Below, one piece after another: positions 31,043 through 57,076 of a stretch of 64,000 nt of DNA. Every line of letters begins with the position of its first letter. The first letter of the stretch is position 1. Source of the stretch: Acidobacteria bacterium 13_2_20CM_57_17 (lineage in GTDB: Bacteria > Acidobacteriota > Terriglobia > Acidiferrales > UBA7541); assembly GCA_001914785.1 (NCBI GenBank), contig MNDE01000154.1:44107-108106 (forward strand), in the 5' to 3' direction. The notes below the pieces were generated by a model. That model saw only the letters and a program-made list of their open reading frames with translations, searched no databases and was not told the DNA's origin. Position numbers and translations under genes: made by a program.

Positions 31043-31060
31043 GGCGAAGGGGAAGCGAAG
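31043..31060 (-). promoter_or_regulatory. Putative LexA box
   Basis: Minus strand CTTCGC-TTCCCC-TTCGCC, 26 nt upstream of the helicase ATG. Confidence 0.65.
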
Positions 31061-31082
31061 ATTGCAGAACTTTAGTCCATCC

Positions 31083-31631
31083 CTAACGTTGCGACTTCTC
31101 CCCGACGGCAACCTGCTTGTTGAACTCGCCCGACTTCTTTTTCGGGATCGTTAGCGATTGCCACTTGTCACCGGCGAAGTGCCGCGCGAGATAGACAATT
31201 TGCCCCACGTGATAAGAGTAGTGCGCGATCTGGCGGTTGATTGCTTGCATCACGGAATGCGGCTCTGTCCGAATTGTCACTGTTCGCGACGCGTCCGTAT
31301 CAGTGAGCGGTTCGAGCGCATCGAACAAATATTTCCACCCGCGCTCCCATAGCTCCATCAATTCCGCGCGCGTCGCTGGCGGTTCTTCAAATTCCGTATC
31401 GCGGTTGCGGTCCGGTTTCTCTCCATCGGTGGTCAGAAAATCCGTCCAGCGCGACCGCATGTTGCCGGCCAGGTGTTTTACGATGATGGCGATAGAATTC
31501 GATTCCGCATCCACTACAGTGAAGATCCCTTCGTCCGGACACTGCACCATCGCGCGCTCGCCCAGCTTCTTGTAGTAACGAAAAAGGTCGATGGAATCCT
31601 TCAAGTAGGACGTCGTCAACTGGTGTGCCAT
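31083..31631 (-). CDS. DUF1572 / DinB-like fold protein
   Basis: NSIAIIVKHLAGNMRSRWTDFLTTDGEK, RNRDTEF, HYSYHVGQI. Confidence 0.88.
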   Translation of the reverse strand: MAHQLTTSYLKDSIDLFRYYKKLGERAMVQCPDEGIFTVVDAESNSIAIIVKHLAGNMRSRWTDFLTTDGEKPDRNRDTEFEEPPATRAELMELWERGWKYLFDALEPLTDTDASRTVTIRTEPHSVMQAINRQIAHYSYHVGQIVYLARHFAGDKWQSLTIPKKKSGEFNKQVAVGEKSQR

Positions 31632-31797
31632 AGCGCCATTTTCTACCGTGGACGGAACTTGTCAACCTCCGCTTTCATTTCTGACGCGCACGTCAATTTT
31701 CATTCATCGCAGGCAACCGAGCGCCTCGCTCGCGCAACGAAACAGAGCACGAGTTGAGCCGCCCGAAGAACGGTTTCGAGCGACGAGAAAGAAATGC

Positions 31798-31827
31798 TTG
31801 ACAATTCGCTTTTTGTTCGCCTAATAT
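31798..31827 (+). promoter_or_regulatory. Sigma70 promoter with putative LexA box in the spacer
   Basis: TTGACA (31798-803), ATTCGC-TTTTTG-TTCGCC (31804-21), TAATAT (31822-27). Confidence 0.8.
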
Positions 31828-31866
31828 CGCTGCGCTGAAATTTCGAATTTCACAACGGAGGTTCGT

Positions 31867-32400
31867 ATGACCATTGGACAAACCATGCTGTCCGAATTCG
31901 ACGAGGAGATGAAAAACACCCGCAAAGTCCTGGAACGCTGTCCCGACGAAAAGTGGAACTGGAAGCCGCACGAAAAATCCGGCACGCTCGGCTGGCTCGC
32001 CGGCCACGTCGGCACTGTCCCTGAGTGGATTACCATGACCATTAACACGGAAGAGCTCGATTACGCCCCCGTTGGAGGCCCCGCCTTTGAGCCGCCGAAA
32101 ATCACCAACCGCAAGGAACTCCTGGCTGCTTTTGATAAAGGCGCTGCCGAAGCCCGCGCTGCGCTCGCCAAAGTCAGTGACGCCGACATGGCGAAAGGTT
32201 GGAAACTGCTGGCAGGTGGCCAGGAGATCTTCACCATGCCGCGTGTCGCGTGCATTCGCGGCATGTGCCTCAACCATCTCATCCATCATCGCGCGCAGCT
32301 CACGGTTTACTTCCGGCTCATCGGAGTTCCCGTGCCAGGCCTCTACGGTCCCAGCGCGGATGAAAGCCAGCCGGGCGCGGCCGAAGCGGCGGCTCATTGA
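31867..32400 (+). CDS. DinB-family (Bacillus-type damage-inducible, four-helix bundle) protein
   Basis: WKPHEKS..LGWLAGH, NHLIHHRAQL.VY.R, VPGLYGPSAD. Confidence 0.9.
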   Translation: MTIGQTMLSEFDEEMKNTRKVLERCPDEKWNWKPHEKSGTLGWLAGHVGTVPEWITMTINTEELDYAPVGGPAFEPPKITNRKELLAAFDKGAAEARAALAKVSDADMAKGWKLLAGGQEIFTMPRVACIRGMCLNHLIHHRAQLTVYFRLIGVPVPGLYGPSADESQPGAAEAAAH

Positions 32401-32420
32401 GCCCAGCATGATTTATCTGG

Positions 32421-32447
32421 GGGGCGGAGCAATCCGCCCTGTGTTTT
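32421..32447 (+). terminator. Intrinsic terminator
   Basis: GGGGCGGA-GCAA-TCCGCCCT followed by GTGTTTT. Confidence 0.7.
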
Positions 32448-32516
32448 GTCCGTGGCGACAGCCTCCTTCATCGCATCGCGCTATAATAGTGTGCGTCTCT
32501 CCTCTGGAGGCGCGTC

Positions 32517-33707
32517 ATGACCACGGAAACCCCCGTCATTCTCTCCGCTGTTCGAACGCCCATCGGCAAATTCCAGGGCGGCCTTGCTGGATTCTCCGCG
32601 CCCGAACTTGGCGGCAAAATCGTCGCTGAAGCGATTCGCCGTGCGGGCCTCGATTCAAATCAGATTGACGAAGCGATCCTGGGCAACGTGGTGCAGGCGG
32701 GCCTCGGACAGAATCCCGCGCGCCAGGCTGCGCTCAAGGGCGGCTGCAATCCTCGCGTCGCTGCCATGACCATTAATAAAGTCTGCGGCTCCGGATTGAA
32801 GGCCGTCGCTTTGGCCGCACAAGCCGTGCAGCTTGGCGAATCGGAAATCGTCGTCGCAGGGGGCATGGAGTCCATGTCGAACTGTCCGTATCTTTTGCCG
32901 CAAGCGCGCACGGGTTACCGCATCGGTGATGGAAAAATTGTCGACTCCATGATCAATGACGGCCTCTGGGACGCTTACGAAAATTTTCACATGGGCATGA
33001 CCGGCGAACTGGTCGCCGAAAAATACGGCATTACGCGCGAAGAGCAGGACCGCTTCGCGTTCGAGAGCCACCAGAAAGCGGTGCGCGCGCGTAAGTCCTG
33101 CTTCTTCGAAGCGCAAATTCTGCCCATCGAAGTGCCGCAGAAAAAAGGCGAGCCGTTCGTCATCAAATACGATGAATCGCCGCGTGAAGACACGAGCATG
33201 GAAGCGCTCGGGAAATTAAAGCCCGCGTTCAAAAGAGATGGGACAGTCACCGCAGGCAATGCGCCCGGCACCAACGATGGCGCGGCGGCGCTGGTGGTCA
33301 CCAGCGAGCGCAACGCTTCGCGCCTCGGCAAGCAGCCCGTCGCGCGCATCGTCGCACAAGCCTTCAGCGGCGTGGAACCTAAGTGGGTGATGATGGCGCC
33401 CGTTGACGCTGTCGAAAAGCTCCTCACAAAAACCGGCTGGGACCGCGACAAAGATGTTGATTTGGTCGAGTTGAACGAAGCTTTTTCCGTTGCGGCCATC
33501 GCCGTCACGCGTCAGCTCAAACTCAATCCCGAAAGAGTAAACGTCAATGGCGGCGCGGTCGCGCTCGGTCATCCCATTGGCGCGAGCGGCGCGCGCATCC
33601 TCGTTACCCTGCTCTATGAATTGGAGCGCCGCAACCTTAAGCGCGGCATTGCCGCACTCTGCCTCGGCGGAGGCAACGCCGTTGCCCTCGCCGTCGAACG
33701 TTTCTAA
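32517..33707 (+). CDS. Acetyl-CoA C-acetyltransferase (thiolase)
   Basis: [27 protein letters not shown]. Confidence 0.97.
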
Positions 33708-33724
33708 ATTCTCGAAATTATTTT

Positions 33725-34168
33725 TTACTGGACGAGCGTGCTTTGGCTGGCCACGCATTTCCACTGGCCGTTCTGCTTGATCCAGGTGTCCGTGAATCGC
33801 GCTCGCCGCGTGTACGGTTTTCCCTTGGTCATTCCCGTTTCGCGATAGACGCCGGAGACTACTCCCGCGTTGCTGTAGACATGAACCTGCATGCCCTCGT
33901 CGTACATGTGGTCCGGAGTCGAACTGGGGCTGGCAACGGATCGCAGGTATTCCGCTCTAGTCTTGAGTGAGCCGTCGTAATCCACATAAACGAGCGTGTC
34001 GTCGAAGAGCGAAGCGATGGCTCCGGCGTCGCGTCCCATTTCCGCTTGATTCCAGGAGCGTTCCAGTTGGATGAGCTGAGTTTCGTCGTCGGCCGCTTTG
34101 GCGCGCCCCTGGATCAGGACTACGAACCCGACCGCCATGATCGGCACAAGCAGCAAAATTCTTCTCAT
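33725..34168 (-). CDS. Exported NTF2-like (DUF4440) protein
   Basis: GGAGG RBS, signal peptide; LERSW, RFTDTWIKQNGQWKCVASQ. Confidence 0.88.
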   Translation of the reverse strand: MRRILLLVPIMAVGFVVLIQGRAKAADDETQLIQLERSWNQAEMGRDAGAIASLFDDTLVYVDYDGSLKTRAEYLRSVASPSSTPDHMYDEGMQVHVYSNAGVVSGVYRETGMTKGKPYTRRARFTDTWIKQNGQWKCVASQSTLVQ

Positions 34169-34554
34169 GAGGACTTCCCTCCACGTGCTAAACGTTACGG
34201 CAACAATGCTATCGGCCACTTCGTCCGTCAAGAAGAAAGGGCGCTAAGGAAGCGGTGAAGTAACAGCCCGCCATATTCCTCGGAAAATTCTAAGGAGCTG
34301 ACCGACGCATATCTTCTCTGGACCGGGAATACACCTTGTGGCAATATGCGAGCCGCTCATTCTGCGTAAGCCGTGTCTCGGAAGATTATTCGGGTATTTA
34401 CCTGACTGGAATTTCGAGCATGGCAAGAATAGAGTACCGCGGGGCGGGGAGGGTGGTCTCCACGTCCGGTCGGTGTTCGGGAAACAGGGTCGGTGTCCGG
34501 AAAAACAGGTCGGCCCAGGAACCAGCTTTCATTCTTCTCGCGATGGGGTGACGT

Positions 34555-37500
34555 ATGATGAATGCCTTCTCCAAATTTGTGCTGGTAGTGTGCTTTGCCT
34601 TGTTCGTTTCGCAGGGATTGCTCGCGCAGTCAGACCTCGGCAAGATTTCAGGTTTTATCAAGGACCCGTCAGGCGCGACGATTGCCAACGCCAAGGTTAC
34701 GATTCGAAATAACACGGGCGGCGTCGAGCGCCAAACGACGACCAACGATTCCGGGTACTACGTCGTTACGAATGTGCCGCCTGGCCTCTACACGATGATC
34801 GCAGAGGCAACTGGTTTCCAGAAGTACGAGAGCACGAACAACAAGCTAGATCCGGCCGCGGATCTCGTCATCGATGCGACGCTGAGCGTTGGTTCGTCCA
34901 GTCAAACCGTCGAGGTTTCGGCATCGACGGTGCAACTGCAGACGGAATCAGCAGCAGTGCAAAAACTGGTCACACGGGAACAGATTGACTTGCTCGAGTT
35001 GAATGGGCGGAACCCGATCGGCCTCGCGGGACTGGTTCCCGGGGCACGCGGCGGCACGGCGGCGAGCCTGACGTTTGCTTTCAGCCAGGGTCCGGCGAAT
35101 TTCAACGGCTCGCGCAACCCGGAGAATTTGATCACCTACGACGGTGCTCCGGCTACGCGCACGCGCTCCAACGGAACGAGCCTGGGTGCCGCGGACGTGG
35201 ACTCCACACAGGAAGTCGAGATACTGACCTCGAACTACGCCCCTGAGTATGGCCGCACGTCCGGCGCGCAGATTCGCATCGTCACTAAGACCGGCACGCA
35301 GAACTTCCACGGCGCCGCTTACGAATACCTGAGGAATGACGCGTTCAACGCCAACACCTGGACGCGCAACACTAATGCTTTGACAGCGTATGTGGCGCCC
35401 ATGAAATACAACCAGTTTGGATACAACCTCGGCGGCCCGTTCTACATCCCCGGGAAATTCAACACCAATAAGAAAAAGGTTTTCTTCTATTGGGGGGAGG
35501 AATGGGTCAAGTACCACTTTCTCGAATCGGGTTCATCGGTCGGGTCGGCAGGCCTGCTATCGGTTCCGACGCTCAAAATGCGGCAAGGGGATTTCAGCGA
35601 ATTGCTCAGCCCGAATCCCTTCTACTCAGCAACCAAGATTATCAACGATCCGAACACGGGCACGCAATTCGTTGCATCAGCGAGTCCCGCCGCCCCCAAT
35701 TACAGTCCCGCTTGCACGAGCGCGGCTGGCTGTCCCAACGTCATCCCGGTCAACCGACTTAGCCCGAACGGCGTCGGCATCCTGAATGCGTGGCCAATTC
35801 CCAACCTCACGAACTTTATCGGCGGCAATGGCAACTGGTTTGCCGCGAAGCTGCACACTTTCGACCAGCGCAAGGATACCGCCGGTGTGGATGTAAACCT
35901 CACAGAGAAGCAGCGTCTCAGGTTTCACGCAATGAATTACGCATATCTGGAGTACCAACCTCTTGACGGCAATACCGATCGCACCCCGAAGTTTTTCAAT
36001 CGCCCCAACAAGACCGGCTCACTCAACCATACGTGGACGCTCAACCCCAGAATGGTGAATGAGGTTCTGATCAGCGCCAGCGAGGACGTCGTGTTGATAC
36101 CTGTCGACACGGCGAACTTCTTCGATCGAACGAAGGCGTGCGCACAATCCACCGTGCCATGCAGCCTCAATTACCCCTACATATTTCCGACTGGGAAGCT
36201 GCTTCCGAACCGCATCCCGACGGTGAATTTGTCCAACTTCTCGGGACTGAGCGGCGGGCCGTATCCGTCGCATTCCGCGGGCCCCATCTATGACATATCC
36301 GACAGCTTCACCTGGGTAAAACAAAATCACACGCTGAAATTCGGTGCTCTTTGGGAGCGCTCCGGCGAAAACGACAATGACGAGATAAACGTTCAGGCTT
36401 GCCCGACTTGTACGAACAACCAGAATGGCCAATTCCTCTTCACCGATGGCCGTGCCGGCGGGACAGGGGTCGCCGCCGCTAACGCCGCTTTGGGCCTGTT
36501 CGACAGCTATTCAGAAATCGGGCATCGTGCATACACGATCTTTCGCGCCAACATGTGGGAGTCGTTCGCGCAAGACTCTTGGAAGATGAGGCAGAATTTG
36601 ACTCTTACCTTCGGCCTCCGCTATTCCGTCATTGTTCCCTACCATGCCCTGTGGGGAAACATGATTGTTTTCGACCCGCGGTTTTATGATCCGGCTAAGG
36701 CAGTTACCATCAGCCCGACGACCGGTCTCATTCAAGGCACCGTTGACCCAAAGACGGGTCTTGTTACCGGCACCGGAGCAGACACTTATAACGGCATGGT
36801 CATCCCCGGCAGCGGGTTCCCATCTTCCGCAATAAAGCACTTTCCGGAGGCCGACCCGACTCAGTTCGATTTCAGCCGCCTGTTTCGCGGCGTTTCCGAC
36901 CATTACTCCGACATTCAGTGGGGTGAAATCCAGCCTCGTCTCGGTATTGCTTACCAGTTGAACAAAAAGAACGTGTTTCGCCTTGGCGCGGGGCGCTACA
37001 CGACTCGTTTGGGCGTGAGTGACTCGATCTTCCTCGGCGGGAATCCGCCGTTCCAACCGAACGCCAGTGTCGCCAACGGCTCGGCAGATAACCCCGGAGC
37101 TGGCGGCGGAGCCAACATTACCCGGGTGGTCACAACGCAAAGCAAAGGTTTTAAGCCTCCTGAATCGTGGGCCTGGAATGTCACCTATGAGCGCGAGATG
37201 TTCTGGAAGTCGCTCGTGAGTGTAGGATACGTGGCACGTCGCGGCTTGCATCTGCAGCGCGAGGCCGACATCAACCAGCCGACGACAGCAGTTGTGGCGG
37301 CGAATCCTGGTGTCAACATTAACGCGCTGCGGCCCTACAAGGGCTTCGGCTCCATTCGACAAACGGATAACGCAGCCAACTCCATGTATAATTCACTCCA
37401 GATTTCTTGGAACCGCCGCTACTCGAACGGGCTACTGTTCGGAGCGTCCTACACATTGTCCAAGAGCATAGACAATGGCTCGAACCAGCGTGACGTTGTC

Positions 37501-38127
37501 CCCGATACATATGACATAAGCATGCTATGGGGCCCGTCGGAATTCGACGCCCGGCACATCTTGGTGTTCAACTACCTCTACGACCTGCCATTCTTCAAGG
37601 ACCGCTCCAAGTTGACTGGGAAGGTGATAGGGGGCTGGCAAATCAGCGGCATCACTCAGTTCCAGACAGGCACGCCCTGCGGCGCTGCCGAGGCTAAAGA
37701 CTACGCTGGCGTGGGCCTGGACTCGAACTTTGGGTGCGGTACTAACGGGCAGTATTATACCGTCAACGGCACTCCCAGAATCATCGGAACGTTCGGCACC
37801 ACTGGTCAGTGGTTCGACACCTCAGTTTTCTCCAAACCGGCTGCGGGAACTTTCAACACGCAGCGCGTTCGCGACTTGATCTACCAGCCCGGATACCAGA
37901 ACTGGAACCTTGGGCTGTTCAAGACGTTCCCCATTACCGAGAAAATAGGTCTCCAGTTCCGCGCCGAGGCGTACAACTTCATCAACCACCCAAACTGGGG
38001 CGGAGGTAGCGGCGGCGGCGTGAACTTCAATCCGACCAGCTCAAACTTTGGGAAAGTGACAACAAAGGGAGGCGGTGTCGCGGGCGGCGAGCGGAACCTG
38101 CAGCTGTCGCTGCGCTTCTATTTCTAG
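34555..38127 (+). CDS. TonB-dependent outer-membrane receptor (Oar-like) with carboxypeptidase-regulatory N-domain
   Basis: ISGFIKDPSGATIANAKVT, LELNGRN, YAPEYGR, FHGAAYEYLRN, QFRAEAYNFINHPN, C-terminal QLSLRFYF. Confidence 0.95.
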   Translation: MMNAFSKFVLVVCFALFVSQGLLAQSDLGKISGFIKDPSGATIANAKVTIRNNTGGVERQTTTNDSGYYVVTNVPPGLYTMIAEATGFQKYESTNNKLDPAADLVIDATLSVGSSSQTVEVSASTVQLQTESAAVQKLVTREQIDLLELNGRNPIGLAGLVPGARGGTAASLTFAFSQGPANFNGSRNPENLITYDGAPATRTRSNGTSLGAADVDSTQEVEILTSNYAPEYGRTSGAQIRIVTKTGTQNFHGAAYEYLRNDAFNANTWTRNTNALTAYVAPMKYNQFGYNLGGPFYIPGKFNTNKKKVFFYWGEEWVKYHFLESGSSVGSAGLLSVPTLKMRQGDFSELLSPNPFYSATKIINDPNTGTQFVASASPAAPNYSPACTSAAGCPNVIPVNRLSPNGVGILNAWPIPNLTNFIGGNGNWFAAKLHTFDQRKDTAGVDVNLTEKQRLRFHAMNYAYLEYQPLDGNTDRTPKFFNRPNKTGSLNHTWTLNPRMVNEVLISASEDVVLIPVDTANFFDRTKACAQSTVPCSLNYPYIFPTGKLLPNRIPTVNLSNFSGLSGGPYPSHSAGPIYDISDSFTWVKQNHTLKFGALWERSGENDNDEINVQACPTCTNNQNGQFLFTDGRAGGTGVAAANAALGLFDSYSEIGHRAYTIFRANMWESFAQDSWKMRQNLTLTFGLRYSVIVPYHALWGNMIVFDPRFYDPAKAVTISPTTGLIQGTVDPKTGLVTGTGADTYNGMVIPGSGFPSSAIKHFPEADPTQFDFSRLFRGVSDHYSDIQWGEIQPRLGIAYQLNKKNVFRLGAGRYTTRLGVSDSIFLGGNPPFQPNASVANGSADNPGAGGGANITRVVTTQSKGFKPPESWAWNVTYEREMFWKSLVSVGYVARRGLHLQREADINQPTTAVVAANPGVNINALRPYKGFGSIRQTDNAANSMYNSLQISWNRRYSNGLLFGASYTLSKSIDNGSNQRDVVPDTYDISMLWGPSEFDARHILVFNYLYDLPFFKDRSKLTGKVIGGWQISGITQFQTGTPCGAAEAKDYAGVGLDSNFGCGTNGQYYTVNGTPRIIGTFGTTGQWFDTSVFSKPAAGTFNTQRVRDLIYQPGYQNWNLGLFKTFPITEKIGLQFRAEAYNFINHPNWGGGSGGGVNFNPTSSNFGKVTTKGGGVAGGERNLQLSLRFYF

Positions 38128-38150
38128 CTGTCGCTATCCTGCGCACGGCA

Positions 38151-38789
38151 CTAGGCTGTGCCTTGCGCGGGAATCTCGGCGGCGTTTAGCGCTGATTTCA
38201 GATCGTTGCCGCAGTAGGGGCAGAACTTGTCGGATTCCGCGATTTCGCGCTTGCACTGCGGGCACGAAGGATGCAAGTTGCACTTGCAGTTCGGGCAGAA
38301 GTTGAACCGCGCGCCCACGGTGTTTCCGCATTGCGGGCAAGGATACGGAAGCGGCTCGCGCATCAGAAAATAAATCACGAAGCCGATGAAGCCCCACGCG
38401 GGCAGAAGAATAAGCACAAGAATTGTCCACAAGGCAGCGCTCATTCCGCGGCGCGAAGCATCGCGGTTGACGTAGGCGATCATGAAAATCATCACCGCCA
38501 TGCAAAGGCTGGCCGCGGTGACGATTCCTGCCAAAGCTAACGATGCCAGCGCCGGGTTATCCCGCAGTTCCGGCGGAAAAATCTGGTCCCCGCGCTGAGG
38601 CGCGCTCATGTTCACCAGAAAAGCGATTGCTTGCGCGGCGAGGAAGAGCACAATCACCAGAATAATCAGCCATCGGGGAATAATTCCAAACTCTTGCCAG
38701 AAGCGCAGATTTTCTTTCCGCCGTCGAAGGCGAATCAGACGCTTTCTCTCGTTGAATGAATCGGTCACGCGTTGCTGGTAGTCAGACAT
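38151..38789 (-). CDS. Membrane protein with double zinc ribbon
   Basis: TM helices, YVNRDASRRGM, four CxxC pairs. Confidence 0.88.
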   Translation of the reverse strand: MSDYQQRVTDSFNERKRLIRLRRRKENLRFWQEFGIIPRWLIILVIVLFLAAQAIAFLVNMSAPQRGDQIFPPELRDNPALASLALAGIVTAASLCMAVMIFMIAYVNRDASRRGMSAALWTILVLILLPAWGFIGFVIYFLMREPLPYPCPQCGNTVGARFNFCPNCKCNLHPSCPQCKREIAESDKFCPYCGNDLKSALNAAEIPAQGTA

Positions 38790-38814
38790 TCTTTTCTCTC
38801 TCCACGTGTCGCAG

Positions 38815-39866: not shown

Positions 39867-40020
39867 CAGCGTGGAAAAAAACAGCGTCGGTACCGGCGTC
39901 GCCGACGGACCGAAGAAGATGGACGGCTGCGGCGTCAAGCATGAGGTCGTGGCGCACATTCTAATGGGTATACGAGGAAGTATGGAAAAAGACTCAGCAG
40001 GTGACAGAGAGGCTAGATGC

Positions 40021-40111
40021 CCCCCCACCCCCCCTATGATTATGTATGAATATAAAAACAAAAGAGTTACAGAAAAAGCATTTCGTAAGCCGTTGATTCT
40101 AAAGGACACGA
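40021..40111. repeat. Second copy of the C-tract plus 27-nt-unit element
   Basis: CCCCCCACCCCCCC followed by GTATGAATATAAAAACAAAAGAGTTAC and GTAAGCCGTTGATTCTAAAGGACACGA. Confidence 0.6.
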
Positions 40112-41106: not shown

Positions 41107-41116
41107 GTTATTCGCG

Positions 41117-42711: not shown

Positions 42712-43065
42712 TTGGAGTTCATCTTGAGATTCATACCAGTGATTGTGATTCTTGGCTTGGTGGGAGCCTTTGTTATCTTTAAGGTTCTTACTCGGAATAA
42801 GCGGTATAAGCGTACAAGCACGGAAGTTGCGGATCTTCTAGAGGCTTTCTTGTTGCCGACTGGGGATCCTTGGGCCTTTGACACTCTTACCTCCTTTCCA
42901 CTTGAGGATGAAGAACTCGAGAAGATTCGCATTCGGTGTGCGAACCTCGACTCTGAGTTCCCGCCGGAAATAAAAGGACACTTCTGCGGTGAAAAGGGAC
43001 TTGAAGTGATTCGGGGCTATATTAGCCAGTTGCGAGCGGCGGCGAAGACAGGCGCGTCGAAATAG
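42712..43065 (+). CDS. Membrane-anchored hypothetical protein, lower GC
   Basis: AGGAG RBS, TTG start (alternative 42697); N-terminal TM helix; LEKIRIRC...EFPP...HFC. Confidence 0.65.
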   Translation: MEFILRFIPVIVILGLVGAFVIFKVLTRNKRYKRTSTEVADLLEAFLLPTGDPWAFDTLTSFPLEDEELEKIRIRCANLDSEFPPEIKGHFCGEKGLEVIRGYISQLRAAAKTGASK

Positions 43066-43119
43066 GCGAACATAAGGCGAAAAATAATGTTTGCTTTTTG
43101 TTCGCCATAGTGATAGTTT
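43065..43119 (+). promoter_or_regulatory. Double putative LexA box overlapping a promoter
   Basis: Box on minus strand 43065-82 (TTTCGC-CTTATG-TTCGCC), box on plus strand 43089-106 (GTTTGC-TTTTTG-TTCGCC); TTGCTT-N17-TAGTTT with extended TG. Confidence 0.75.
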
Positions 43120-43146
43120 GGCCTCGCTGTTTTCAACAGGTGCACC

Positions 43147-43350
43147 ATGCACGGTTTTTCAAGCAGTGTTCTAAGCTGTCTGGAACGTAAGAGACTCGAA
43201 GAGGATCTCTCCGAGGCGCGCATCCGGGGCCGGAACCTTTCCCGGCTGCGGCAACTGACCCGGCGGGAACGGATGGCACTGGATGAACGCGAGCAGACGG
43301 CTCAGGCGCAGCTGAGAGACCATGATGCGGAGCACGGTTGTCAACGGTGA
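43147..43350 (+). CDS. 67-aa helical protein with Cys...HxxxHGC motif
   Basis: AGGT RBS-like site; CLERKRL...LRDHDAEHGC. Confidence 0.65.
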   Translation: MHGFSSSVLSCLERKRLEEDLSEARIRGRNLSRLRQLTRRERMALDEREQTAQAQLRDHDAEHGCQR

Positions 43351-43402
43351 TCTTGATGACACTCAAGCTGTTCTGAGGCTCGAGGTTTGGACGAAGCGAA
43401 GA

Positions 43403-43429
43403 GAGATTTCTCGCTTCGCTCGAAATGAC
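43403..43429. repeat. REP-like unit inside a long stem-loop
   Basis: GAGATTTCTCGCTTCGCTCGAAATGAC, flanked by TGATCTTGATG (43348) and CGTCAAGATCA (43447). Confidence 0.55.
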
Positions 43430-43608
43430 GAGATGACGTCAAGATCAAAAGCGGGCGGCTGAAAAAAGGGATGGCGCGAAGATGAATCGAGTGGTAAACT
43501 CCACACTTCGTTACGCCCCTGGGCACAGGCGATGCGCTTTCCCTGCGCGGAACCTAGGCCGTCGGCCCCGCAGGCCAAGGCTCCTACTTTCCTCCACCGA
43601 GGTGTGAA

Positions 43609-44733
43609 ATGGCAGACGACAGAGAAAGATTGCTGGCAGCGGCGATATCGCAAATTGAAAAGGACCACGGCAAGGGCGCGATCATGCGCCTGGGCAGCCG
43701 CGATATTCTGGTGCCCGTTAGTGTGATCCCCAGCGGATGCCTCTCGATTGACGCGGCGCTGGGGGTTGGCGGTTTTCCGCGTGGGCGCGTGATCGAGATT
43801 TACGGGCCGGAATCCGGCGGCAAGACCACGATGACACTGCACGTGATCGCCGAGGCGCAGAAGCTCGGTGGACAGGCGGCGTTCATTGACGCGGAGCATG
43901 CGCTCGATCCCGTCTATGCGCGGAAATTAGGCGTGGACGTGGACAACCTGCTGGTGTCGCAGCCGGATAACGGCGAGCAGGCGTTGGAAATCGCGGAAAC
44001 GCTGATTCGTTCCGGCGGCGTGGACATCGTCGTGGTGGACTCCGTCGCAGCACTGGTTCCCAAGGCTGAACTCGAAGGCGACATGGGCGACCCGCAGATG
44101 GGACTGCAAGCGCGCTTGATGTCGCAGGCGCTGCGCAAGCTGACCGGCATCGTCTCGAAGTCGCGAACTTGCCTGATTTTCATCAACCAGATCCGCGAAA
44201 AAATTGGCGTGATGTTCGGCAACCCGGAAACGACCACGGGCGGTCGCGCGCTGAAGTTCTACGCCTCGATGCGCGTGGATATCCGGCGAATTCAGGCCAT
44301 CAAAGAAGCCGACAAGGTGGTTGGTTCGCGGACACGTGCGAAAGTAGTGAAGAACAAGGTAGCAGCGCCGTTCCGCGAAGCCGAATTCGACATCGTCTAT
44401 GGCGAGGGGATTTCGCGCGAAGGCGACTTGATCGATTTGGGCGTGGATAAGGGTGTGCTGGAAAAGAGCGGCACGTGGATTAGCTTCGGCGGCGAGCGCA
44501 TGGGCCAAGGCCGCGAAAATGCTCGCGTCTTCCTGAAGGAAAACAAGGACATTCGCGACAAGCTGGAAAATGTGCTGAGGAAAAAGCTCGAAATCCCGGT
44601 ACCGGGCAATTCAAACGCTGCTGCGACGGGGCCGAATGGGCACGCTGCCTCTGCACAGGCGGAGAAGCCGCCGATGAAGACCTCGGCGGCAACGGCAGGC
44701 GCGGATGCGTCCAAAGCGCGTCCAACCCGTTAA
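43609..44733 (+). CDS. recA: Recombinase RecA
   Basis: [53 protein letters not shown]. Confidence 0.99.
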
Positions 44734-49625: not shown

Positions 49626-49698
49626 TTGTATGCCATCTAATCGCTTTTAGGGAAACAGAGACCCTATGGTCGAGGGGAGGCCCTTCTGACCGAACAAA

Positions 49699-49837
49699 TC
49701 CAAATGCATGCCATCAACCAACCGACAATCCGGCGACAGCGTGTAACCTATAGAAAACCAACAAGCTACGCCAAAGAAGGATGCCACCCAGTGTGCGGGG
49801 TTTCCCGGTTCGGAACACAAGGGCCACTCTGGAACAT
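49699..49837 (-). promoter_or_regulatory. Possible sigma54 promoter with IHF-like site and upstream repeats
   Basis: TGGCATGCATTTGGA (49713-49699), IHF-like 27-mer at 49743-69, GGAACA repeats at 49812 and 49831. Confidence 0.45.
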
Positions 49838-49909
49838 CCGCCTTAGGACGAGAATCGCGCTTGGGCTTAGGCTTTGAAGATGCGTTAACAGAGTGTGGGA
49901 TATTCAGTA

Positions 49910-51277
49910 TCAGTAAATGATAGGTAGCTTTGAAAAGTCCGAGGCAGTTTCGTCCGTTACCCGGAGGACGACGAGGGTGCGATCGTCGTGCGGGGCAGAA
50001 TCAGCGCCGCTGTGATTGTCGGTTTCAGCGAGGATTCGATCGGCAATCGCGCGAGCGGAATCCTCCGGAGAAATTCCCGAGAGGAGGGCAGACAAACGCT
50101 GCAAGCCGAACTCCTCTTCCGTGGCGTTTGCTGATTCGAGGATGCCGTCGGAAGCAAAAATAATCACGTCACCGGGTTGCAGATCGATGGTGGATTCATC
50201 ATATTCCGTGCCGGGTAGCAGGCCGAGCGGCACACCTTCCAGTCGAATCGAAATCACATGGCCATCGCGGACAAGGAGCGGATAAGGTCCACCGGCGTTG
50301 GAGAGCGTAAGCCGCCGAGTGGACGCGTCGTAAATGGCAAAGAGCATGGCGATAAAACGCGAATCCAGCCGCGCGGCGTGCAACCGTTGATTCAGAAGGG
50401 CCAGCATGGACGCCGGTTCACAAGCATGGTCGACGACAATTTCGCGAACGGTGCCGATGGCCAGAGAGCCGTACAACGCCGCAGCCGTGCCTTTACCCGA
50501 GACATCGCCCAGAGCCAAGGCTAGGCGGCCTTCGCCATACGGAAGAAAATCGTAAAAGTCTCCGCCCAACTCCCGCGCAGGAACATACCCCGCCGCCAAA
50601 TCGAGACCCGGCACTTCACGTGCGCCCGTAGGAAGAAGTTGCCGCTGGATTTCCCTCGCGGTGTCCAGTTCGCTGCGGAGCCGGCGTTCGCTTTCCCGGG
50701 CCTCCTGATAGAGCCGGGCGTTTTCGAGGGCCACGGCGACATATGAGCCAAGTGTCGAAAGCATCCGTTCGTGCTGCATGGTGAAGGCGTGAGGCTCGCA
50801 GCTTTCGAGATCGAGGACTCCGATGAGACGGTCGCGCAACAGAAGCGGCACGACAAGCTCCGAGCGAGCGACGAGACCGCCATCACAGTGGAGGTAACGC
50901 GGATCTTCCGTAACGTCATTGACCCGTAGAACGCGGCGCTCGCCTGCAGCCGATCCGGTGAGCCCTTTGTGCAGCGGGACGCGCGTGCGTGCGGCAATGG
51001 AATCGCCGCAGCACATGGCAAAAACGCTTTCCAGATGCTGAGACTGCTCGTTCCAGAGCATAACGCTGAAAACGTCATACTTCACGATCTTCTTGATGCG
51101 CTCGGCGACGCGGCGAAGAAGTTCTTCGCGGTCGAGGATGGAGGTTACTTCGCGGCTGACGTCGTAGAGCAGAGCGAGCGTATTGGCCTGATCCGGATGA
51201 GAAAGGAACAGGCTCTGCGGGACAGGGTCCGCGTCACCCAACAGCGCAAAGGAGCCGATTTTTGAAAGGTCTTCCAT
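49910..51277 (-). CDS. GAF plus SpoIIE/RsbU-type PP2C phosphatase
   Basis: RSELVVPL (GAF), GGDFYD, GDVSGKG, ASDGILE, DDRT. Confidence 0.95.
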   Translation of the reverse strand: MEDLSKIGSFALLGDADPVPQSLFLSHPDQANTLALLYDVSREVTSILDREELLRRVAERIKKIVKYDVFSVMLWNEQSQHLESVFAMCCGDSIAARTRVPLHKGLTGSAAGERRVLRVNDVTEDPRYLHCDGGLVARSELVVPLLLRDRLIGVLDLESCEPHAFTMQHERMLSTLGSYVAVALENARLYQEARESERRLRSELDTAREIQRQLLPTGAREVPGLDLAAGYVPARELGGDFYDFLPYGEGRLALALGDVSGKGTAAALYGSLAIGTVREIVVDHACEPASMLALLNQRLHAARLDSRFIAMLFAIYDASTRRLTLSNAGGPYPLLVRDGHVISIRLEGVPLGLLPGTEYDESTIDLQPGDVIIFASDGILESANATEEEFGLQRLSALLSGISPEDSARAIADRILAETDNHSGADSAPHDDRTLVVLRVTDETASDFSKLPIIY

Positions 51278-51441
51278 GGAGCGTTCGAAGGCTAGCCTTC
51301 ATTGGATGTAGCAAATCCGCGGAGGTTTCACAATTGAATTCTTAGGGATGGCTGGAAAGGCCAAGGAATGGCATGACCACAATGGCCACGGCGCTTTCGG
51401 ATGTATCAGGGAAAAAGGCGGCCTTCGCAGTGAACCAACGA

Positions 51442-52473
51442 CTACTTTACTTCCCAGGTGTCGCCGGCCCGCAAAAGCTTCCCAAGGTCGCCGGGGCCGC
51501 GCTTGGCGATGACGTCCTTGATCTGCTGGTTCATGACGTCTTCGTATCGAGGAAGATCATCCCAGGCTCTGAAAACGCCGATCGGCGTGGGGAAGCCCGG
51601 CCGGTGCTCCATATGCGAGAGTAGGAAGGCGTAGGAAGGACGCGGGTGGTGTGCGTCGTGCACCGCGAGATCGCTCTCCGTAATGCCGTTGCCGAGCTGG
51701 ACGACTTCAATGTCACCATCCGGCTTCCGGCGGATTCCCTTGTCGCGGTTCTTGCCGAAAACGAGGGGCTTACCATGTTCGAGCTGAATCACGTGTTCGC
51801 TGCGCGCATCGCGCTCGGTCAGGGAGAACCACGCTCCATCATTGAAAATGTTGCAGTTCTGAAGAATCTCCACAAACGCGGAACCTTTGTGCGCCGCAGC
51901 GTGCTTCAAGGTTTCTTTCAGGTGCCCCTGGAAAACATCCACGGAGCGCGCCACAAACGTCGCTTCCGAACCAATCGCCAGCGACATCGGATTGAAGGGC
52001 CGGTCCACGGACCCGAACGGCGTCGATTTCGTCTTCTTGTTGAATTCAGAGGTCGGCGAATACTGGCCTTTCGTCAAACCGTAAATCTTATTATTGAAAA
52101 GGAGAACCTTGATGCCGACATTGCGCCGCAGCATGTGAATCGTGTGATTTCCGCCGATGGAAAGCGCGTCCCCGTCGCCGGTAGCTACCCAAACTTCCAA
52201 GTCCGGCCGAATCGCCTTAATGCCGGTGGCCACTGCGGGCGCGCGGCCATGAATCGTGTGGAAGCCAAAAGTGTTCATGTAATACGGGAAACGGCTGGAG
52301 CAGCCGATGCCGGAAACGACCACGAAGTTCTCGCGCTTGATGCCCAGCTCCGGAAAAACGGATTGCACGGCAGAGAGAATCGCGTAGTCCCCGCAGCCGG
52401 GGCACCAGCGTACTTCCTGGTCAGTTTGAAAGTCCTTTTTCGTGAGAGGCGGTGGCAGAGTCGCTGTTCCCAT
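51442..52473 (-). CDS. korB: 2-oxoacid:ferredoxin oxidoreductase beta subunit
   Basis: WCPGCGD, SGIGCSSR, GDGD, NNKIYGLTKGQYSPT. Confidence 0.95.
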   Translation of the reverse strand: MGTATLPPPLTKKDFQTDQEVRWCPGCGDYAILSAVQSVFPELGIKRENFVVVSGIGCSSRFPYYMNTFGFHTIHGRAPAVATGIKAIRPDLEVWVATGDGDALSIGGNHTIHMLRRNVGIKVLLFNNKIYGLTKGQYSPTSEFNKKTKSTPFGSVDRPFNPMSLAIGSEATFVARSVDVFQGHLKETLKHAAAHKGSAFVEILQNCNIFNDGAWFSLTERDARSEHVIQLEHGKPLVFGKNRDKGIRRKPDGDIEVVQLGNGITESDLAVHDAHHPRPSYAFLLSHMEHRPGFPTPIGVFRAWDDLPRYEDVMNQQIKDVIAKRGPGDLGKLLRAGDTWEVK

Positions 52474-52484
52474 GGTGGATTCTC

Positions 52485-54344
52485 CTAGAGTCCCAACATC
52501 TCTTCGATTTTTTGTTCCAGCTCGGCTTGCTTAAACGGGCGGCCCTGAATCTTGTTGAGGCCGATGGCATCCACCAGATACTTCGCGCGCAGCACCCACA
52601 AGAGCTGGCCCATGTTCAATTCCGGCACGAGCACTTTCTTATAGCGCTTTAAAATGTCGCCCAAATTTGACGGGAGCGGATTGAGGTGCCGCAGGTGAAG
52701 ATGGCCGATCCTGCGCCCCTTGGCGCGCTGCGCCTTCAAGGCCGCGGTAATCGAGCCGCAAGTCGAGCCCCATGCCACGATCAGCAAATCGCCTTCCGGA
52801 TCGCCCGCGGGAAGCAAATTGGGAATGTCCTGCGCGACCGCCGCGACCTTGGCTGCTCGAACGCGCACCATATTCTCGTGGTTCAGCGGCTCGTAGTTGA
52901 TGTTCCCCGTCGGATCCTGTTTCTCAAGTCCGCCGATGCGATGTTCGAGGCCGGGAGTTCCCGGCACCGCCCATGGGCGAGCCAGAGTCTCCGGGTCGCG
53001 CTTGTAAGGCAGGAAGCTGGCCGGGTCGGTCGCAAATTTTACCGGGAAATCCGGGATGTCTTTCAGCTCCGGTATTCGCCACGGTTCCGCTCCGTTTGCC
53101 AGGTAGCCGTCCGAGAGAATGATTACCGGCACCATGTACTTGACGGCAATGCGGCAGGCTTCGATGGCTACCCAGAAGCAATCCGCAGGCGTCGCCGCAG
53201 CCAGAACTGGAATCGGTGCTTCCGAGTTGCGGCCGAAGAGCGCCTGCAGCAGGTCTGCTTGTTCGGTCTTGGTCGGAAGGCCGGTGGATGGTCCGCCGCG
53301 CTGGATGTCGCATATAACAAGCGGGATCTCCACGGCAACGGCCAAGCCCAGCGCTTCCGTTTTCAAAGCCATTCCGGGGCCAGACGTCGTCGTGATGGCC
53401 AGCGCCCCCGCGTACGCCGCGCCGATCGCCGACGTGATGGCGGCGATCTCGTCTTCCGCCTGAAAGGTCATAACGCCAAAGTCTTTGTACTGCGAGAGTT
53501 CATGCAGAATGTCCGAAGCTGGCGTAATGGGGTAACTGCCTTGGAAAAGCCTTAGCCCGGATTTCTGCGCCGCCGTAACAAATCCCAGTGCGAGCGCCTG
53601 ATTGCCGCTCATGCTCCGGTAGAGTCCCGGCGTAAGCTGCGCCGGCGGAATCTCATAGCTGATCTGAAATGCTTCCGTGGCCTCGCAGTACGAATAGCCG
53701 CCCTTCAACGCGAGTTTGTTCGCTTCCACCAGAAGCGGCTTGTTCTTGAACTTGTCCTCGATCCACCGGACGGTCGGATCCATCGAGCGGTTGTAGAGCC
53801 AATAGCACATGCCCAGCGCGAAGAAGTTCTTGCAGCGGTCCATGGACTTGGCATCGAGTCCCAGATGTTCGAGGGAGCGCCGTGTCAGCCGTTCGAGTTC
53901 CACCGAAAACAGCCGGAACTTGTCGAGGGAATGATCTTCCAGCGGATTCGAGGTCATTTGCGCTTTGCGCAGGTCGCCTTCTTTGAAGCTATCGCTGTTG
54001 ACGATCAGGATCCCGTTGGCTTTGAGGTCGGCAATGTTCACTTTTAATGCCGCCGGATTCATGGCAATCAGCACGTCGATGGCGTCGCCGGGCGTATAAA
54101 CCTCATTGGAAGAGAAGTGCAACTGAAAACCGCTGACGCCGGGAATCGTTCCGGCAGGGGCGCGAATTTCGGCGGGGTAGTCCGGAAACGTAGCAATATC
54201 ATTGCCGTAGAGGGCGGCGGTATTCGTGAACTGGTTGCCGGTGATCTGCATGCCGTCACCGGAGTCTCCCGCGAAGCGGATGACCGCCTGATCCAGAACT
54301 TCGCGCTTGTTTTTTACTGGTGGAACCTCTGCAAGCGTAGACAT
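52485..54344 (-). CDS. korA: 2-oxoacid:ferredoxin oxidoreductase alpha subunit (gamma-alpha fusion)
   Basis: AGDSGDG, YPAEIR, YPITPAS, QAEDEIAA, QRGGPSTGLPT. Confidence 0.95.
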   Translation of the reverse strand: MSTLAEVPPVKNKREVLDQAVIRFAGDSGDGMQITGNQFTNTAALYGNDIATFPDYPAEIRAPAGTIPGVSGFQLHFSSNEVYTPGDAIDVLIAMNPAALKVNIADLKANGILIVNSDSFKEGDLRKAQMTSNPLEDHSLDKFRLFSVELERLTRRSLEHLGLDAKSMDRCKNFFALGMCYWLYNRSMDPTVRWIEDKFKNKPLLVEANKLALKGGYSYCEATEAFQISYEIPPAQLTPGLYRSMSGNQALALGFVTAAQKSGLRLFQGSYPITPASDILHELSQYKDFGVMTFQAEDEIAAITSAIGAAYAGALAITTTSGPGMALKTEALGLAVAVEIPLVICDIQRGGPSTGLPTKTEQADLLQALFGRNSEAPIPVLAAATPADCFWVAIEACRIAVKYMVPVIILSDGYLANGAEPWRIPELKDIPDFPVKFATDPASFLPYKRDPETLARPWAVPGTPGLEHRIGGLEKQDPTGNINYEPLNHENMVRVRAAKVAAVAQDIPNLLPAGDPEGDLLIVAWGSTCGSITAALKAQRAKGRRIGHLHLRHLNPLPSNLGDILKRYKKVLVPELNMGQLLWVLRAKYLVDAIGLNKIQGRPFKQAELEQKIEEMLGL

Positions 54345-54641
54345 TCTTGTCCGAACCTCCGCACTTCGATGAACTCCCTTGTCCCCCGGGAGTGTGGCTC
54401 ATTCACAAGGATGAGGCGGTGCGGTAAAAGGATGGTCTCTAAGGCAGCCCGCCAGGAGCCGACACCCAAAGGATATCACACCGGCCTGCGTGCGGCGGAG
54501 AGAGTGCCCGCCGCAACGGGATGTGCCTTATCCAGAAAGGGATGCGGTATGCGCCTTGGCTTTATCGAGGGTCCGGAGAAACAGTTGAGATTGAAGAAGG
54601 TCTACGGAAATGAGCTTCGCTGGGGCACTCCAGCCTACTGG

Positions 54642-55780
54642 TTATTGGTCCATATGGTTGATGAGCGCTTTCGCTTCTTCCAGGCCGTTCTGTAAATCTG
54701 CCGTCGTCTTGACAGTGAGTAGCTCAGCGCCGATTCGGACCAAAGTATCCGCGATCCCTAACGAAATGCCGGCAAGGATGACGTGCGCTCCCAGGAGGCG
54801 GACCGCGTCCACAGTGCGCAGCAAACCATCGGCAGTTTCCGGGTCAATCTTCGGGACTCCCGTCAAATCAATCACCACGGCCTTGGCACGTTGCGCGCGG
54901 ATGTCATTTAGCAGTTGGCTGCGCAATTGCATCGCGCGCCGCGCGTCCACCAGGCCGATCAGCGGTACAACGAGCAGTCCTTCCTGCGCCTGCAGGACCG
55001 GCGTAGACAATTCCTCGATGGCCGCTTCCAATCTGCGCCTCTCCGTAATATCCATGATCGTCGCAAACAGGCAAGGATTGCCGGTGAACTCGATTAAGTC
55101 AGCGGAGAGTTGCACTGTCCGTATCTGGCCCGACTTGGTCCGCATTGTGGTCTCCACTTCCCGGACTGGATGCCCAGCGGATAATTCGGAGACGATGCGC
55201 GTACGCACGTCCGGTTCCACCCAAATCCCCAGGTCGATTGACGTTTGACCGATTAATTCTTTGGCGCTGTAGCCTGTCAACCTGCAAAAGGATGCGTTCA
55301 CCTCAAGATAGCGCCCGTCTTCCAACGTGCTGAGCATAATCGGATAGGGGTTGACACGAAACAGCTTCTCGAACGTGGAGCCCATGGCCCACTTGCGCTC
55401 CGTCAAATCGCGCGTGACTTTTCCAAAGCCGCACAGCCGTCCCTGCTCATCTTTAATCGCAGTGATGATCACGTTGGCCCAAAAACGCGTGCCGTCCTTC
55501 CGCACACGCCAGCCTTCCGCTTCGAACCGCCCCTCGGCAGACGCGATGCGCAGTCGTTCGCGGGCTTTCCCTGCTCCATTTCCTCCGGAGTGTAAAAAAT
55601 CGAGAAGTGCCGGCCCCGAACCTCTTCCGCCTTGTACCCTTTAATGAGTTCAGCTCCCTGGTTCCACGTCGTAACATTCCCTTCGACATCGAGCATGAAA
55701 ATTGCGTAGTCCTTTACGCTCTCCACCAGCAATTGGAGCTGATCTTCGATTCTCCACGAAAGTTGAGTTCCCTGATTCAC
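54642..55780 (-). pseudogene. PAS-PAS-STAS (RsbR-like) protein with a single-base frameshift
   Basis: PAS N-half (DYAIFMLD...WNQGAE...FYTPEE) and C-half (EGRFEAEGWRVRKDGTRFWANV) are in different frames, switching near 55554; STAS domain ELSTPVL...IDLTGV. Confidence 0.8.
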
Positions 55781-55921
55781 GGTATCCGTAACCTCGGTCG
55801 CAGAATAAAAAAATTTGACAGCGGAGGCCGATTGATTGGCCTCCGGGCAATTCCCAAGGGAAACTCTCAGTCGAGAGCCGGAAAATGAGTTCAAGCAGCG
55901 ATGATGCGTGACTGGGGATGA

Positions 55922-56824
55922 TTACAAGAGATAAGTGGCTCCGTATTCGATCAAACCCTTGCCAGCGCCCTTGCGCGAACTAACGATCCTGGCAGGCGCG
56001 TAGATATTCGGGGCTCTGGAAGTGTAGGGCACCGCCATTTCCACCTGCGATCCTTCGGGATAATTGCTGGCGCTAAAGAAGCTGAGGCCCCCGCGCGCCA
56101 AGTCTCTAACGAGCACAACTTCGCTTCCAAGAGTGGGATGCCGAACACAACCAACCGCCTCGACTCGGACGCGCTCGTGGGAGCGCTGATTCTGCGTTCC
56201 AGGGGCCAAGAGGTGGCGTGACGCGGGGTGAAGACTATCTTGCTCATCCAGAGTCCCTGGCGCCGGGGAAGTATGACTGTATGGCCGAGTCCAGGTAGTC
56301 CATCCACCGCAATGCTGGCAGATGCGGGAGATGCAGTGGTGGTGAAGGAAAAGATCGGCCTCAAATTCGCTAAGGTAGGACACCGCCAGCCGGCCACAGG
56401 CGATACATCGGAGCAACGCCCGGAGCACAGCCTTCTCTGCGTCAGCCAGCGAGGGAAAAGAAATGTCCCACAGATTAACTTCGGGATCGAGCAAAACCAG
56501 CCCGAACAGATTTCCCCCCGAACCGCCTGGAATGCGGCCTACGACACGGGCCATCGCCTCCTTGCCAACTCCAACTCGCTGGATCTTTACGGCCTGGCCG
56601 GGGGACAGTTCCCGTTCCACCATGATAGCGGCGCCTTGCCGGCTAACGTCTACCGTTTGCGCCTCCTCCACGAAATCAGCGCCTTGTTTTCCGGCACCAG
56701 AAATGCGAACAGGCAAAGTCAGAAAAACACGTTCGGTAAGGCGGTGATTTTTGTCCAGAACAGGAGGAGCATGACCCTGCGCAACAGCGCTCGTGCTGGA
56801 TTCGTTGCCGAGATGGTTCGCCAT
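55922..56824 (-). CDS. Tandem PilZ-domain protein with central Cys cluster
   Basis: RLTER...DVSRQG and RSHER...DLARGG; CIAC...CQHC between them. Confidence 0.85.
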   Translation of the reverse strand: MANHLGNESSTSAVAQGHAPPVLDKNHRLTERVFLTLPVRISGAGKQGADFVEEAQTVDVSRQGAAIMVERELSPGQAVKIQRVGVGKEAMARVVGRIPGGSGGNLFGLVLLDPEVNLWDISFPSLADAEKAVLRALLRCIACGRLAVSYLSEFEADLFLHHHCISRICQHCGGWTTWTRPYSHTSPAPGTLDEQDSLHPASRHLLAPGTQNQRSHERVRVEAVGCVRHPTLGSEVVLVRDLARGGLSFFSASNYPEGSQVEMAVPYTSRAPNIYAPARIVSSRKGAGKGLIEYGATYLL

Positions 56825-57047
56825 GTGGCACCACCGCTGATACAAGAACTCAACAGGTTTCCGCTTCTCAATCTCGGCGGAACAGGTCCATCCGAGAGCC
56901 ACGGGCATAGCAACGCGGGCTGGACTGCCAGTACAGTTTCATGAGATTCATGCACATGACAATCAGGTGAAAGAAGGATTTAGGAGAGGGTAATTCCACC
57001 TACACAGTGACCTGAGTCAGTCCAATCGTTGAAGGTAAAATTTAAGC

Positions 57048-57076
57048 TTGACGTTCGCTTTCTTTTCGCCTAAAGT
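57048..57076 (+). promoter_or_regulatory. lexA promoter with putative LexA box
   Basis: TTGACG (57048-53), GTTCGC-TTTCTT-TTCGCC (57053-70), TAAAGT (57071-76). Confidence 0.85.

What the first reader, a model, noticed from the sequence alone, without database searches (positions are those of the whole stretch)
31043..57070. SOS regulon readable from one window: shared operator TTCGC-N6-TTCGCC
Seen: five 18-nt sites with an 11-nt period: lexA GTTCGCTTTCTTTTCGCC (57053), DinB-family gene ATTCGCTTTTTGTTCGCC (31804), helicase-nuclease CTTCGCTTCCCCTTCGCC (31060-43, minus), and two upstream of the small ORF/recA (43082-65 minus; 43089-106 plus, first half TTTGC). Two lie exactly between -35 and -10 hexamers. 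Known: the LexA box described for Acidobacterium capsulatum and Alphaproteobacteria is the direct repeat GTTC-N7-GTTC, also with period 11. Inference: here the leading G is variable and the conserved core is shifted to TTCGC(C), so none of the five sites matches the published consensus exactly and a strict search would miss this regulon.
Basis: partly seen in the sequence, partly recalled or inferred. Interest (0 to 1): 0.8.

Follow-up and report, generated by a model that had tools for sequence, protein, structure and literature searches.

The report
Refined Acidobacterial LexA (SOS) operator
A short head-to-tail DNA repeat sits in the promoters of lexA, recA and other DNA-repair genes of this soil Acidobacterium and its relatives, and is likely the site where the DNA-damage repressor LexA binds, a sharper version of a box already reported for Acidobacterium rather than a new kind of switch.

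Summary
All five 18-nt sites are at the stated coordinates. The motif nTTCGCYTT-N3-TTCGCY (period 11) lies in 104 of 104 close lexA promoters. A matrix trained only on distant lexA promoters gives 11 genome hits at ≥20 bits, all intergenic. They precede lexA, recA (2), the DinB-family gene, an SplB-like radical SAM gene (2), dnaB, an MrfAB-like helicase, a dCTP-deaminase-like gene and two ECF sigmas. Conservation in relatives: radical SAM 26/26, recA 26/30, MrfA-like 15/17, dnaB 17/17 within the order. uvrA, uvrB and ssb lack it. The site changes to TTCAC in a LexA clade with Asn in the recognition helix, which points to LexA as the binder; binding itself is untested. It is in register with GTTC-N7-GTTC, which only 8 of 108 distinct sites match. 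Corrections: the helicase-nuclease site is weak (5/16 genus loci); the recA boxes lie ~500 bp upstream, and recA has a second, box-less candidate promoter. This scan found the motif before on other DNA (five notes). Not found in 10 literature searches; the key 2006 paper was unreadable.

The parts
57053..57070 (+). LexA box in the lexA promoter, filling the 17-nt spacer between -35 (57048-57053) and -10 (57071-57076)
   Evidence: ≥15 bits in 104 of 104 close lexA loci
57112..57735 (+). lexA, 207 aa, with recognition helix SLATVHKH at 38, Ala-Gly cleavage site at 94-95, catalytic Ser127 and Lys165
31804..31821 (+). LexA box between -35 TTGACA (31798-31803) and -10 TAATAT (31822-31827) of the DinB-family gene
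   Evidence: kept in 11 of 14 loci at ≥63% protein identity
31867..32400 (+). DinB-superfamily (four-helix, not Pol IV) gene, 177 aa
   Evidence: Pfam PF12867, PF05163
31083..31631 (-). DUF1572 (DinB superfamily) gene, divergent from the DinB-family gene, 173 bp from its box and directly upstream of the helicase-nuclease
31043..31060 (-). weak box (15.5 bits) 27 bp upstream of the helicase-nuclease; turns over within the genus
28044..31016 (-). UvrD-type helicase fused to a PD-(D/E)XK nuclease, 990 aa
43065..43082 (-). upstream box of the inverted pair before the small ORF and recA (25.7 bits)
   Evidence: present in 13 of 14 genus recA loci
43089..43106 (+). downstream box of the pair (21.1 bits), 4 nt before an extended -10 TGATAGTTT (43111-43119)
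   Evidence: present in 14 of 14 genus recA loci
43147..43350 (+). conserved 67-aa helical-hairpin ORF without Pfam family; near-invariant C11, H59, H63, C65
43389..43433 (.). short palindromic repeat with similar copies on 6 other contigs, between the small ORF and recA
   Evidence: blastn
43492..43500 (+). second, box-less extended -10 (TGGTAAACT) 117 nt before recA: candidate LexA-independent promoter
   Evidence: exact TGnTAnnnT in 12 of 15 genus sequences; background 0.22 per kb
43609..44733 (+). recA, 374 aa

Best explanation
The repeat nTTCGCYTT-N3-TTCGCY is likely the operator of this organism's LexA repressor, and it is shared across its order and class. LexA would sit on two half-sites one helical turn apart (11 bp), on or beside the -35/-10 elements, and block RNA polymerase. 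After DNA damage, RecA filaments would trigger LexA self-cleavage and free the promoters (established SOS mechanism; the cleavage and catalytic residues are intact here). The predicted regulon in this genome is lexA, small ORF-recA, an SplB-like radical SAM gene, dnaB, an MrfAB-like helicase-exonuclease pair, the DinB-family gene and one ECF sigma; the dCTP-deaminase-like gene, a second ECF sigma and the helicase-nuclease are less sure. uvrA, uvrB and ssb appear to lie outside it. recA likely also has a box-less proximal promoter for basal expression. Shown: the sites, their position, conservation and co-variation with LexA. Inferred: binding, repression, induction.
For: Autoregulatory position in 104/104 close lexA loci, with flanks and distance to ATG varying freely (some loci are the same genome fetched twice). 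A matrix trained only on distant lexA promoters (35 distinct sites) ranks repair and replication genes first in G000; 11/11 hits ≥20 bits are intergenic. Footprints at ≥15 bits: radical SAM 26/26, recA 26/30, MrfA-like 15/17, dnaB 20/30 (17/17 in the order), ECF 13/23 (13/16 genus loci); only 33 of 3718 called genes (0.9%) reach 15 bits. In G230, G211, G005 and G010, matches also precede recN, an ImuA-like gene, Lhr, Ku, RecQ and a Y-family polymerase gene (60 of 110 matches were laid as loci). The recA box stays where the small ORF is missing (L200, L203, L210, L211). A LexA clade with Asn at helix position 3 (9 loci, SH-aLRT 97, quick tree) has TTCAC/TACAC half-sites at lexA (8 scored, 1 by eye), and the same variant precedes radical SAM homologues in G055 and G072 and an ImuA-like gene in G072. 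SplB-type radical SAM genes are described as SOS-regulated in other phyla (PMC8565304, passages).
Against: No binding or induction data. Kin are not independent. The Asn-to-TTCAC link has one origin and one exception (L152 has TTCAC without Asn), and 18 of 75 lexA loci could not be assigned to either type. uvrA 0/10, uvrB 0/5 and ssb 1/20 lack the box, and in G000 so do ku, lhr, the uvrD-like gene and Pol IV within 400 bp. Three f2/f3 recA loci and L225 have none. Several strong sites precede genes with no repair annotation. G000 is 78% complete.
Confidence: 0.92

Rival explanations
1. The repeat is bound by a different DNA-damage regulator (for example a WYL-type activator or another repressor) that also controls lexA.
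For: Direct repeats are unusual for a symmetric LexA dimer; uvrA, uvrB and ssb are not covered; other phyla use non-LexA damage regulators (PMC10693628, PMC8682763: search listings only).
Against: The site changes along the LexA tree and with its recognition helix, at lexA and at other targets. It fills the -35/-10 spacer or covers the start region in either orientation, as a repressor site would. It is in register with the direct-repeat LexA box of Alphaproteobacteria (PMC3323433, PMC9578287, passages).
Confidence: 0.05
2. The T-rich repeat is part of the promoter itself (a spacer preference or an alternative sigma motif) and not a protein operator.
For: In lexA and DinB-family promoters it is contiguous with TTGAC and TAnnnT.
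Against: It occurs in both orientations relative to transcription (reverse at dnaB, MrfA-like, radical SAM and ECF) and at different offsets from the -10. It is confined to about 11 strong intergenic sites in the genome.
Confidence: 0.02
3. The five sites are chance matches in T-rich intergenic DNA.
For: No genome-wide excess of the bare pattern. The helicase-nuclease site alone could be chance or decaying.
Against: Permuted-matrix and shifted-spacer controls; conservation in orthologous promoters of 6 genes.
Confidence: 0.01

Closest known systems
Acidobacterium capsulatum LexA box (Mazon et al. 2006, Microbiology 152:1109, PMID 16549674; only the title was seen, in reference lists; motif GTTC-N7-GTTC and 'recA has no box' are recalled)
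   Same: Same phylum, direct repeat, 11-bp period and TTC core in the same register; some sites satisfy both (e.g. L241/L465 before the radical SAM gene of G230).
   Different: The first base is free (G in 24/108 and 31/108), and GC(Y) after TTC plus a T-rich spacer are conserved instead. 8 of 108 sites match the strict box. 10 of 11 recA promoters in same-class family f4 carry the refined box and 0 of 11 the strict one.
Alphaproteobacterial SOS box GTTC-N7-GTTC (PMC3323433 passage; PMC9578287 Table 1 for Caulobacter crescentus)
   Same: Direct repeat with 11-bp period and a TTC core.
   Different: The conserved letters are shifted 3' (TTCGC instead of GTTC). I did not compare LexA proteins with alphaproteobacterial ones here.
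Gram-positive (Cheo) box CGAAC-N4-GTTCG (PMC9578287 Table 1)
   Same: Its right arm ends in TTCG, the same four letters that begin each half-site here.
   Different: That box is a palindrome; this is a head-to-tail repeat. Descent from it is an inference.
Balneolaeota direct-repeat LexA motif (PMC7739468, passages)
   Same: LexA on a direct repeat, with a regulon including lexA, recA, a helicase and a radical SAM gene.
   Different: Unrelated half-site sequence.

Membership tests
LexA/SOS operator | A genuine, cleavable LexA is encoded | tested here: met
   TIGR00498 above cut-off; Ala-Gly, Ser and Lys motifs present; single copy in G000
LexA/SOS operator | Conserved site in the lexA promoter (autoregulation) | tested here: met
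   104/104 close loci; 48 TTCGC-type and 9 TTCAC-type among 75 loci across the phylum
LexA/SOS operator | Same site before recA and other repair genes, overlapping promoter elements | tested here: met
LexA/SOS operator | Site before uvrA/uvrB (common but not universal members) | tested here: not met
   0/10 uvrA and 0/5 uvrB loci in 5 genomes; upstream operon leaders were not traced
LexA/SOS operator | LexA binds the site; genes are damage-inducible via RecA | not testable with these tools
   needs EMSA/ChIP and RNA-seq; the RNA contigs laid cannot show it
GTTC-N7-GTTC box (Alphaproteobacteria; recalled for A. capsulatum) | Direct repeat, period 11, TTC core | tested here: met
   only the native spacing gives intergenic hits at ≥23 bits
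GTTC-N7-GTTC box (Alphaproteobacteria; recalled for A. capsulatum) | G at the start of both half-sites | tested here: not met
   9 of 108 distinct sites have both G; 8 match exactly
GTTC-N7-GTTC box (Alphaproteobacteria; recalled for A. capsulatum) | Same physical site as the one footprinted in A. capsulatum | not tested
   paper not held; no named A. capsulatum sequence was in hand
Gram-positive palindromic box | Palindrome CGAAC-N4-GTTCG | tested here: not met
   sites are direct repeats; the inverted pair at recA varies in spacing by 23-25 bp, so they are two separate boxes

The most novel reading that the evidence does not exclude
The published acidobacterial LexA consensus is mis-centred. 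The true operator is TTCGC-N6-TTCGCY. It does control recA in the class that holds Acidobacterium (against the recalled report of LexA-independent recA), and it runs an unusual regulon (SplB-like radical SAM, MrfAB-like, dnaB, an ECF sigma, an unnamed Cys/His helical hairpin; no uvrAB). One recognition-helix residue (Ala versus Asn) switches the half-site between TTCGC and TTCAC, giving a natural series to test how LexA reads direct repeats.
Probability: 0.5. Interest if true: 0.55.

Novelty: new variant of a known kind. Interest (0 to 1): 0.35.

Why it matters
Acidobacteriota are abundant, mostly uncultured soil bacteria, and the consensus in use would miss over 90% of these sites. A correct matrix makes their SOS regulons readable from genomes alone and nominates new damage-response genes (the 67-aa hairpin, an ECF sigma, a dCTP-deaminase-like gene). 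It makes one older claim directly testable (recA outside LexA control in Acidobacterium; recalled) and bears on how direct-repeat LexA boxes arose. The mechanism itself is textbook SOS repression.

Tried and rejected
Bare-pattern counts show no enrichment; only position and the weighted matrix do. The ssb site in G000 (16.0 bits) is not conserved (1/20): rejected as a member. The Pol IV hit (16.3 bits, 384 bp away) and the C146/C178 contig-start hits were not pursued and are not counted. The simple promoter scan found no sigma-70 site at 42900-43700, so the two recA promoters rest on conserved extended -10 elements. RNA runs: 5 found, all with word share ≤0.10; 4 were laid. Near-identical contig pieces cover the small ORF in X1-X3 (one study), but contigs give no strand, start or level and may be DNA, so they are no evidence for transcription or read-through to recA. 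Fold search of the hairpin: no PDB match at E ≤0.001. recN was not found in G000, G005 or G010 at E ≤1e-60. ImuA-like was not found in G000 by tblastn and only one DnaE match was found; G000 is 78% complete, so absence is not shown. G173 was included by a handle mix-up and is not used. The careful LexA tree did not finish; the quick tree was used. Literature: 10 searches found no paper describing a TTCGC repeat or an acidobacterial regulon. Not held: Mazon 2006, Erill 2016, da Rocha 2008 and two Erill papers of 2006-2007. No supplements were read; the unread papers, their supplements or regulon databases may already hold this motif.
Full report
Source. The closest named LexA relatives (92-99.5% identical) come mostly from Acidobacteria gp2 and Candidatus Acidiferrum/Acidoferrales MAGs. 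The window lies in G000 contig C187 (4.58 Mb, 78% complete).

Observation. The five sites are at the stated places, and the gene labels hold. The 'DinB' gene is a DinB-superfamily protein, not polymerase IV. The lexA box fills a 17-nt spacer between TTGACG and TAAAGT; the DinB-family box fills an 18-nt spacer between TTGACA and TAATAT. The bare pattern is not enriched genome-wide (38 matches at spacer 6, against 30-86 at other spacers), nor in the window with one mismatch (14 vs 15.7). The case therefore rests on position and conservation.

Independent matrix. I built a weight matrix from 35 distinct sites in lexA promoters of other genera, families and classes only (41 of 74 loci gave a site under the filter). 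In G000 it gives 11 hits at ≥20 bits, all intergenic, and 8 at ≥23. Twenty permuted matrices average 2.2 hits at ≥20 (0.45 intergenic). Eight shifted spacers give 0-1 hits at ≥23, none intergenic. The +3 control had 14 hits at ≥20, half of them in 7-bp tandem arrays. The 11 hits precede an Rv2578c/PA0069-like (SplB-type) radical SAM gene (two boxes), dnaB, the DinB-family gene, an MrfA/Hrq1-like helicase followed by an RNase_H_2 gene, a dCTP-deaminase-like gene, small ORF-recA (two), lexA and two ECF sigma genes. The helicase-nuclease site scores 15.5; 33 of 3718 called genes reach 15.

Footprints (≥15 bits). lexA 104/104 close loci (not in the training set; some duplicates). Radical SAM 26/26. 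recA 26/30: 14/14 genus loci, G011's second copy, G054, 10/11 in same-class family f4, 0/3 in f2/f3, where recA seems to lie inside an operon. MrfA-like 15/17 (15/15 in the order). dnaB 17/17 in the order, 3/10 in f4, 0/3 beyond. ECF 13/16 genus loci, 0/7 outside. DinB-family 11/14 at ≥63% identity and 2/16 in more distant paralogues, one of which is really the helicase site. Helicase-nuclease 5/16 genus loci, 0/4 outside; in its four closest relatives the first half is eroded. Negative: uvrA 0/10, uvrB 0/5, ssb 1/20; recN 1/2. Pattern scans of G230, G211, G010 and G005 (60 of 110 matches laid as loci) add sites before recN, an ImuA-like gene, Lhr, Ku, RecQ, a Y-family polymerase gene and mraZ, and several unannotated genes. 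Kin are not independent, so these are footprints and not statistical tests.

recA region. Two boxes in opposite orientation, 23-25 bp apart across the genus, sit just before an extended -10 (11 of 15 exact), followed by a conserved 67-aa hairpin ORF. The boxes persist in four loci that lack this ORF, so they track recA. A second extended -10 without a box lies 80-127 nt before recA in 12 of 15 sequences (background 0.22 per kb). recA likely has an inducible distal and a basal proximal promoter; read-through is inferred, and RNA contigs could not test it.

Is LexA the binder? On a quick tree of 75 LexA proteins, the 28-member clade holding this genome (SH-aLRT 99) is all TTCGC-type (most of these promoters trained the matrix, but the typing used a separate G/A-neutral score). 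A 9-member clade with Asn at recognition-helix position 3 (97) has TTCAC/TACAC in its lexA promoters (8 scored, 1 by eye), and 18 loci were unassigned. In G055 and G072 of that clade, the TTCAC form also precedes radical SAM homologues, and in G072 an ImuA-like gene (30 of 44 matches laid). This is one origin with one exception (L152), so it supports LexA as binder without proving a residue code.

Mechanism. Shown: site, position, conservation, intact LexA. From established SOS biology: repression, and RecA-stimulated cleavage. Inferred: two DNA-binding domains on one helix face 11 bp apart; the half-site TTCG equals the end of the Gram-positive arm GTTCG (PMC9578287 Table 1).

Comparison with what is known. 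GTTC-N7-GTTC is the alphaproteobacterial box (PMC3323433 passage; PMC9578287 passages). The A. capsulatum paper was seen as a title only; its motif and its statement that recA lacks a box are recalled. The present sites are in the same register but G is optional: 24/108 and 31/108, with 8 exact matches (the core columns are selected by the matrix and so circular, the two G columns hardly so). In f4, which by its class label likely includes Acidobacterium's relatives (not tested), 0 of 11 recA promoters have the strict box and 10 have the refined one. Other papers seen as passages: PMC6511836, PMC7739468, PMC1978210, PMC3789691, PMC3901139, PMC8565304; none describes this motif in the passages read. 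Ten searches found no description, but the key subscription papers are not held. This scan noted the same motif before in other genomes; those notes are not independent support.

Verdict. A real and very probably functional LexA operator: a refined variant of a known box. Its value lies in the corrected consensus, the regulon it opens and the recA question. Interest 0.35.

Noticed in passing
window 43147-43350: Unnamed 67-aa family (261 hits, no Pfam; Atlas clusters mostly Acidobacteriota) directly behind the twin boxes. Predicted two-helix hairpin, pLDDT 89, with C11, H59, H63 and C65 at the open end, possibly a metal site. Present in 10 of 14 genus recA loci.
   Followed up: partly
window 43492-43500; L199-L211, L227: Conserved box-less extended -10 element 80-127 nt before recA (12 of 15), suggesting two recA promoters in this genus.
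   Followed up: partly
L183 3387-4037 (G000 C173); L469-L491: An ECF sigma factor with a box 21-28 bp upstream in 13 of 16 genus loci and 0 of 7 outside: a possible second tier of the damage response.
   Followed up: partly
L180 4809-4831 (G000 C14): The box lies 4 bp from the dnaB start codon; kept in 17 of 17 loci of the order.
   Followed up: yes
L182 4938-6171 (G000 C178): Strong box (26.3 bits) 227 bp before a 318-aa dCTP-deaminase-like gene at a contig end; conservation not tested.
   Followed up: no
L228 (G011 C28): A second recA in a same-genus genome, only 76% identical and with a promoter like those of family f4; a possible transfer or bin contamination.
   Followed up: no
L243, L254, L256: Boxes 330-450 bp from mraZ in both f4 genomes examined, a possible link to the cell-division cluster; not seen in G000.
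   Followed up: no
L166, L170, L171, L175, L176: LexA proteins with Gly at helix position 3 have a TTACGC-like repeat in their promoters: a third variant, read by eye only.
   Followed up: no
family f22: 0 of 18 genomes of family f22 and 0 of 3 of f12 had a LexA match at E ≤1e-20 with this query.
   Followed up: no
window 43389-43433: Short palindromic repeat with similar copies on six other contigs; contigs of relatives in run X5 skip it.
   Followed up: no
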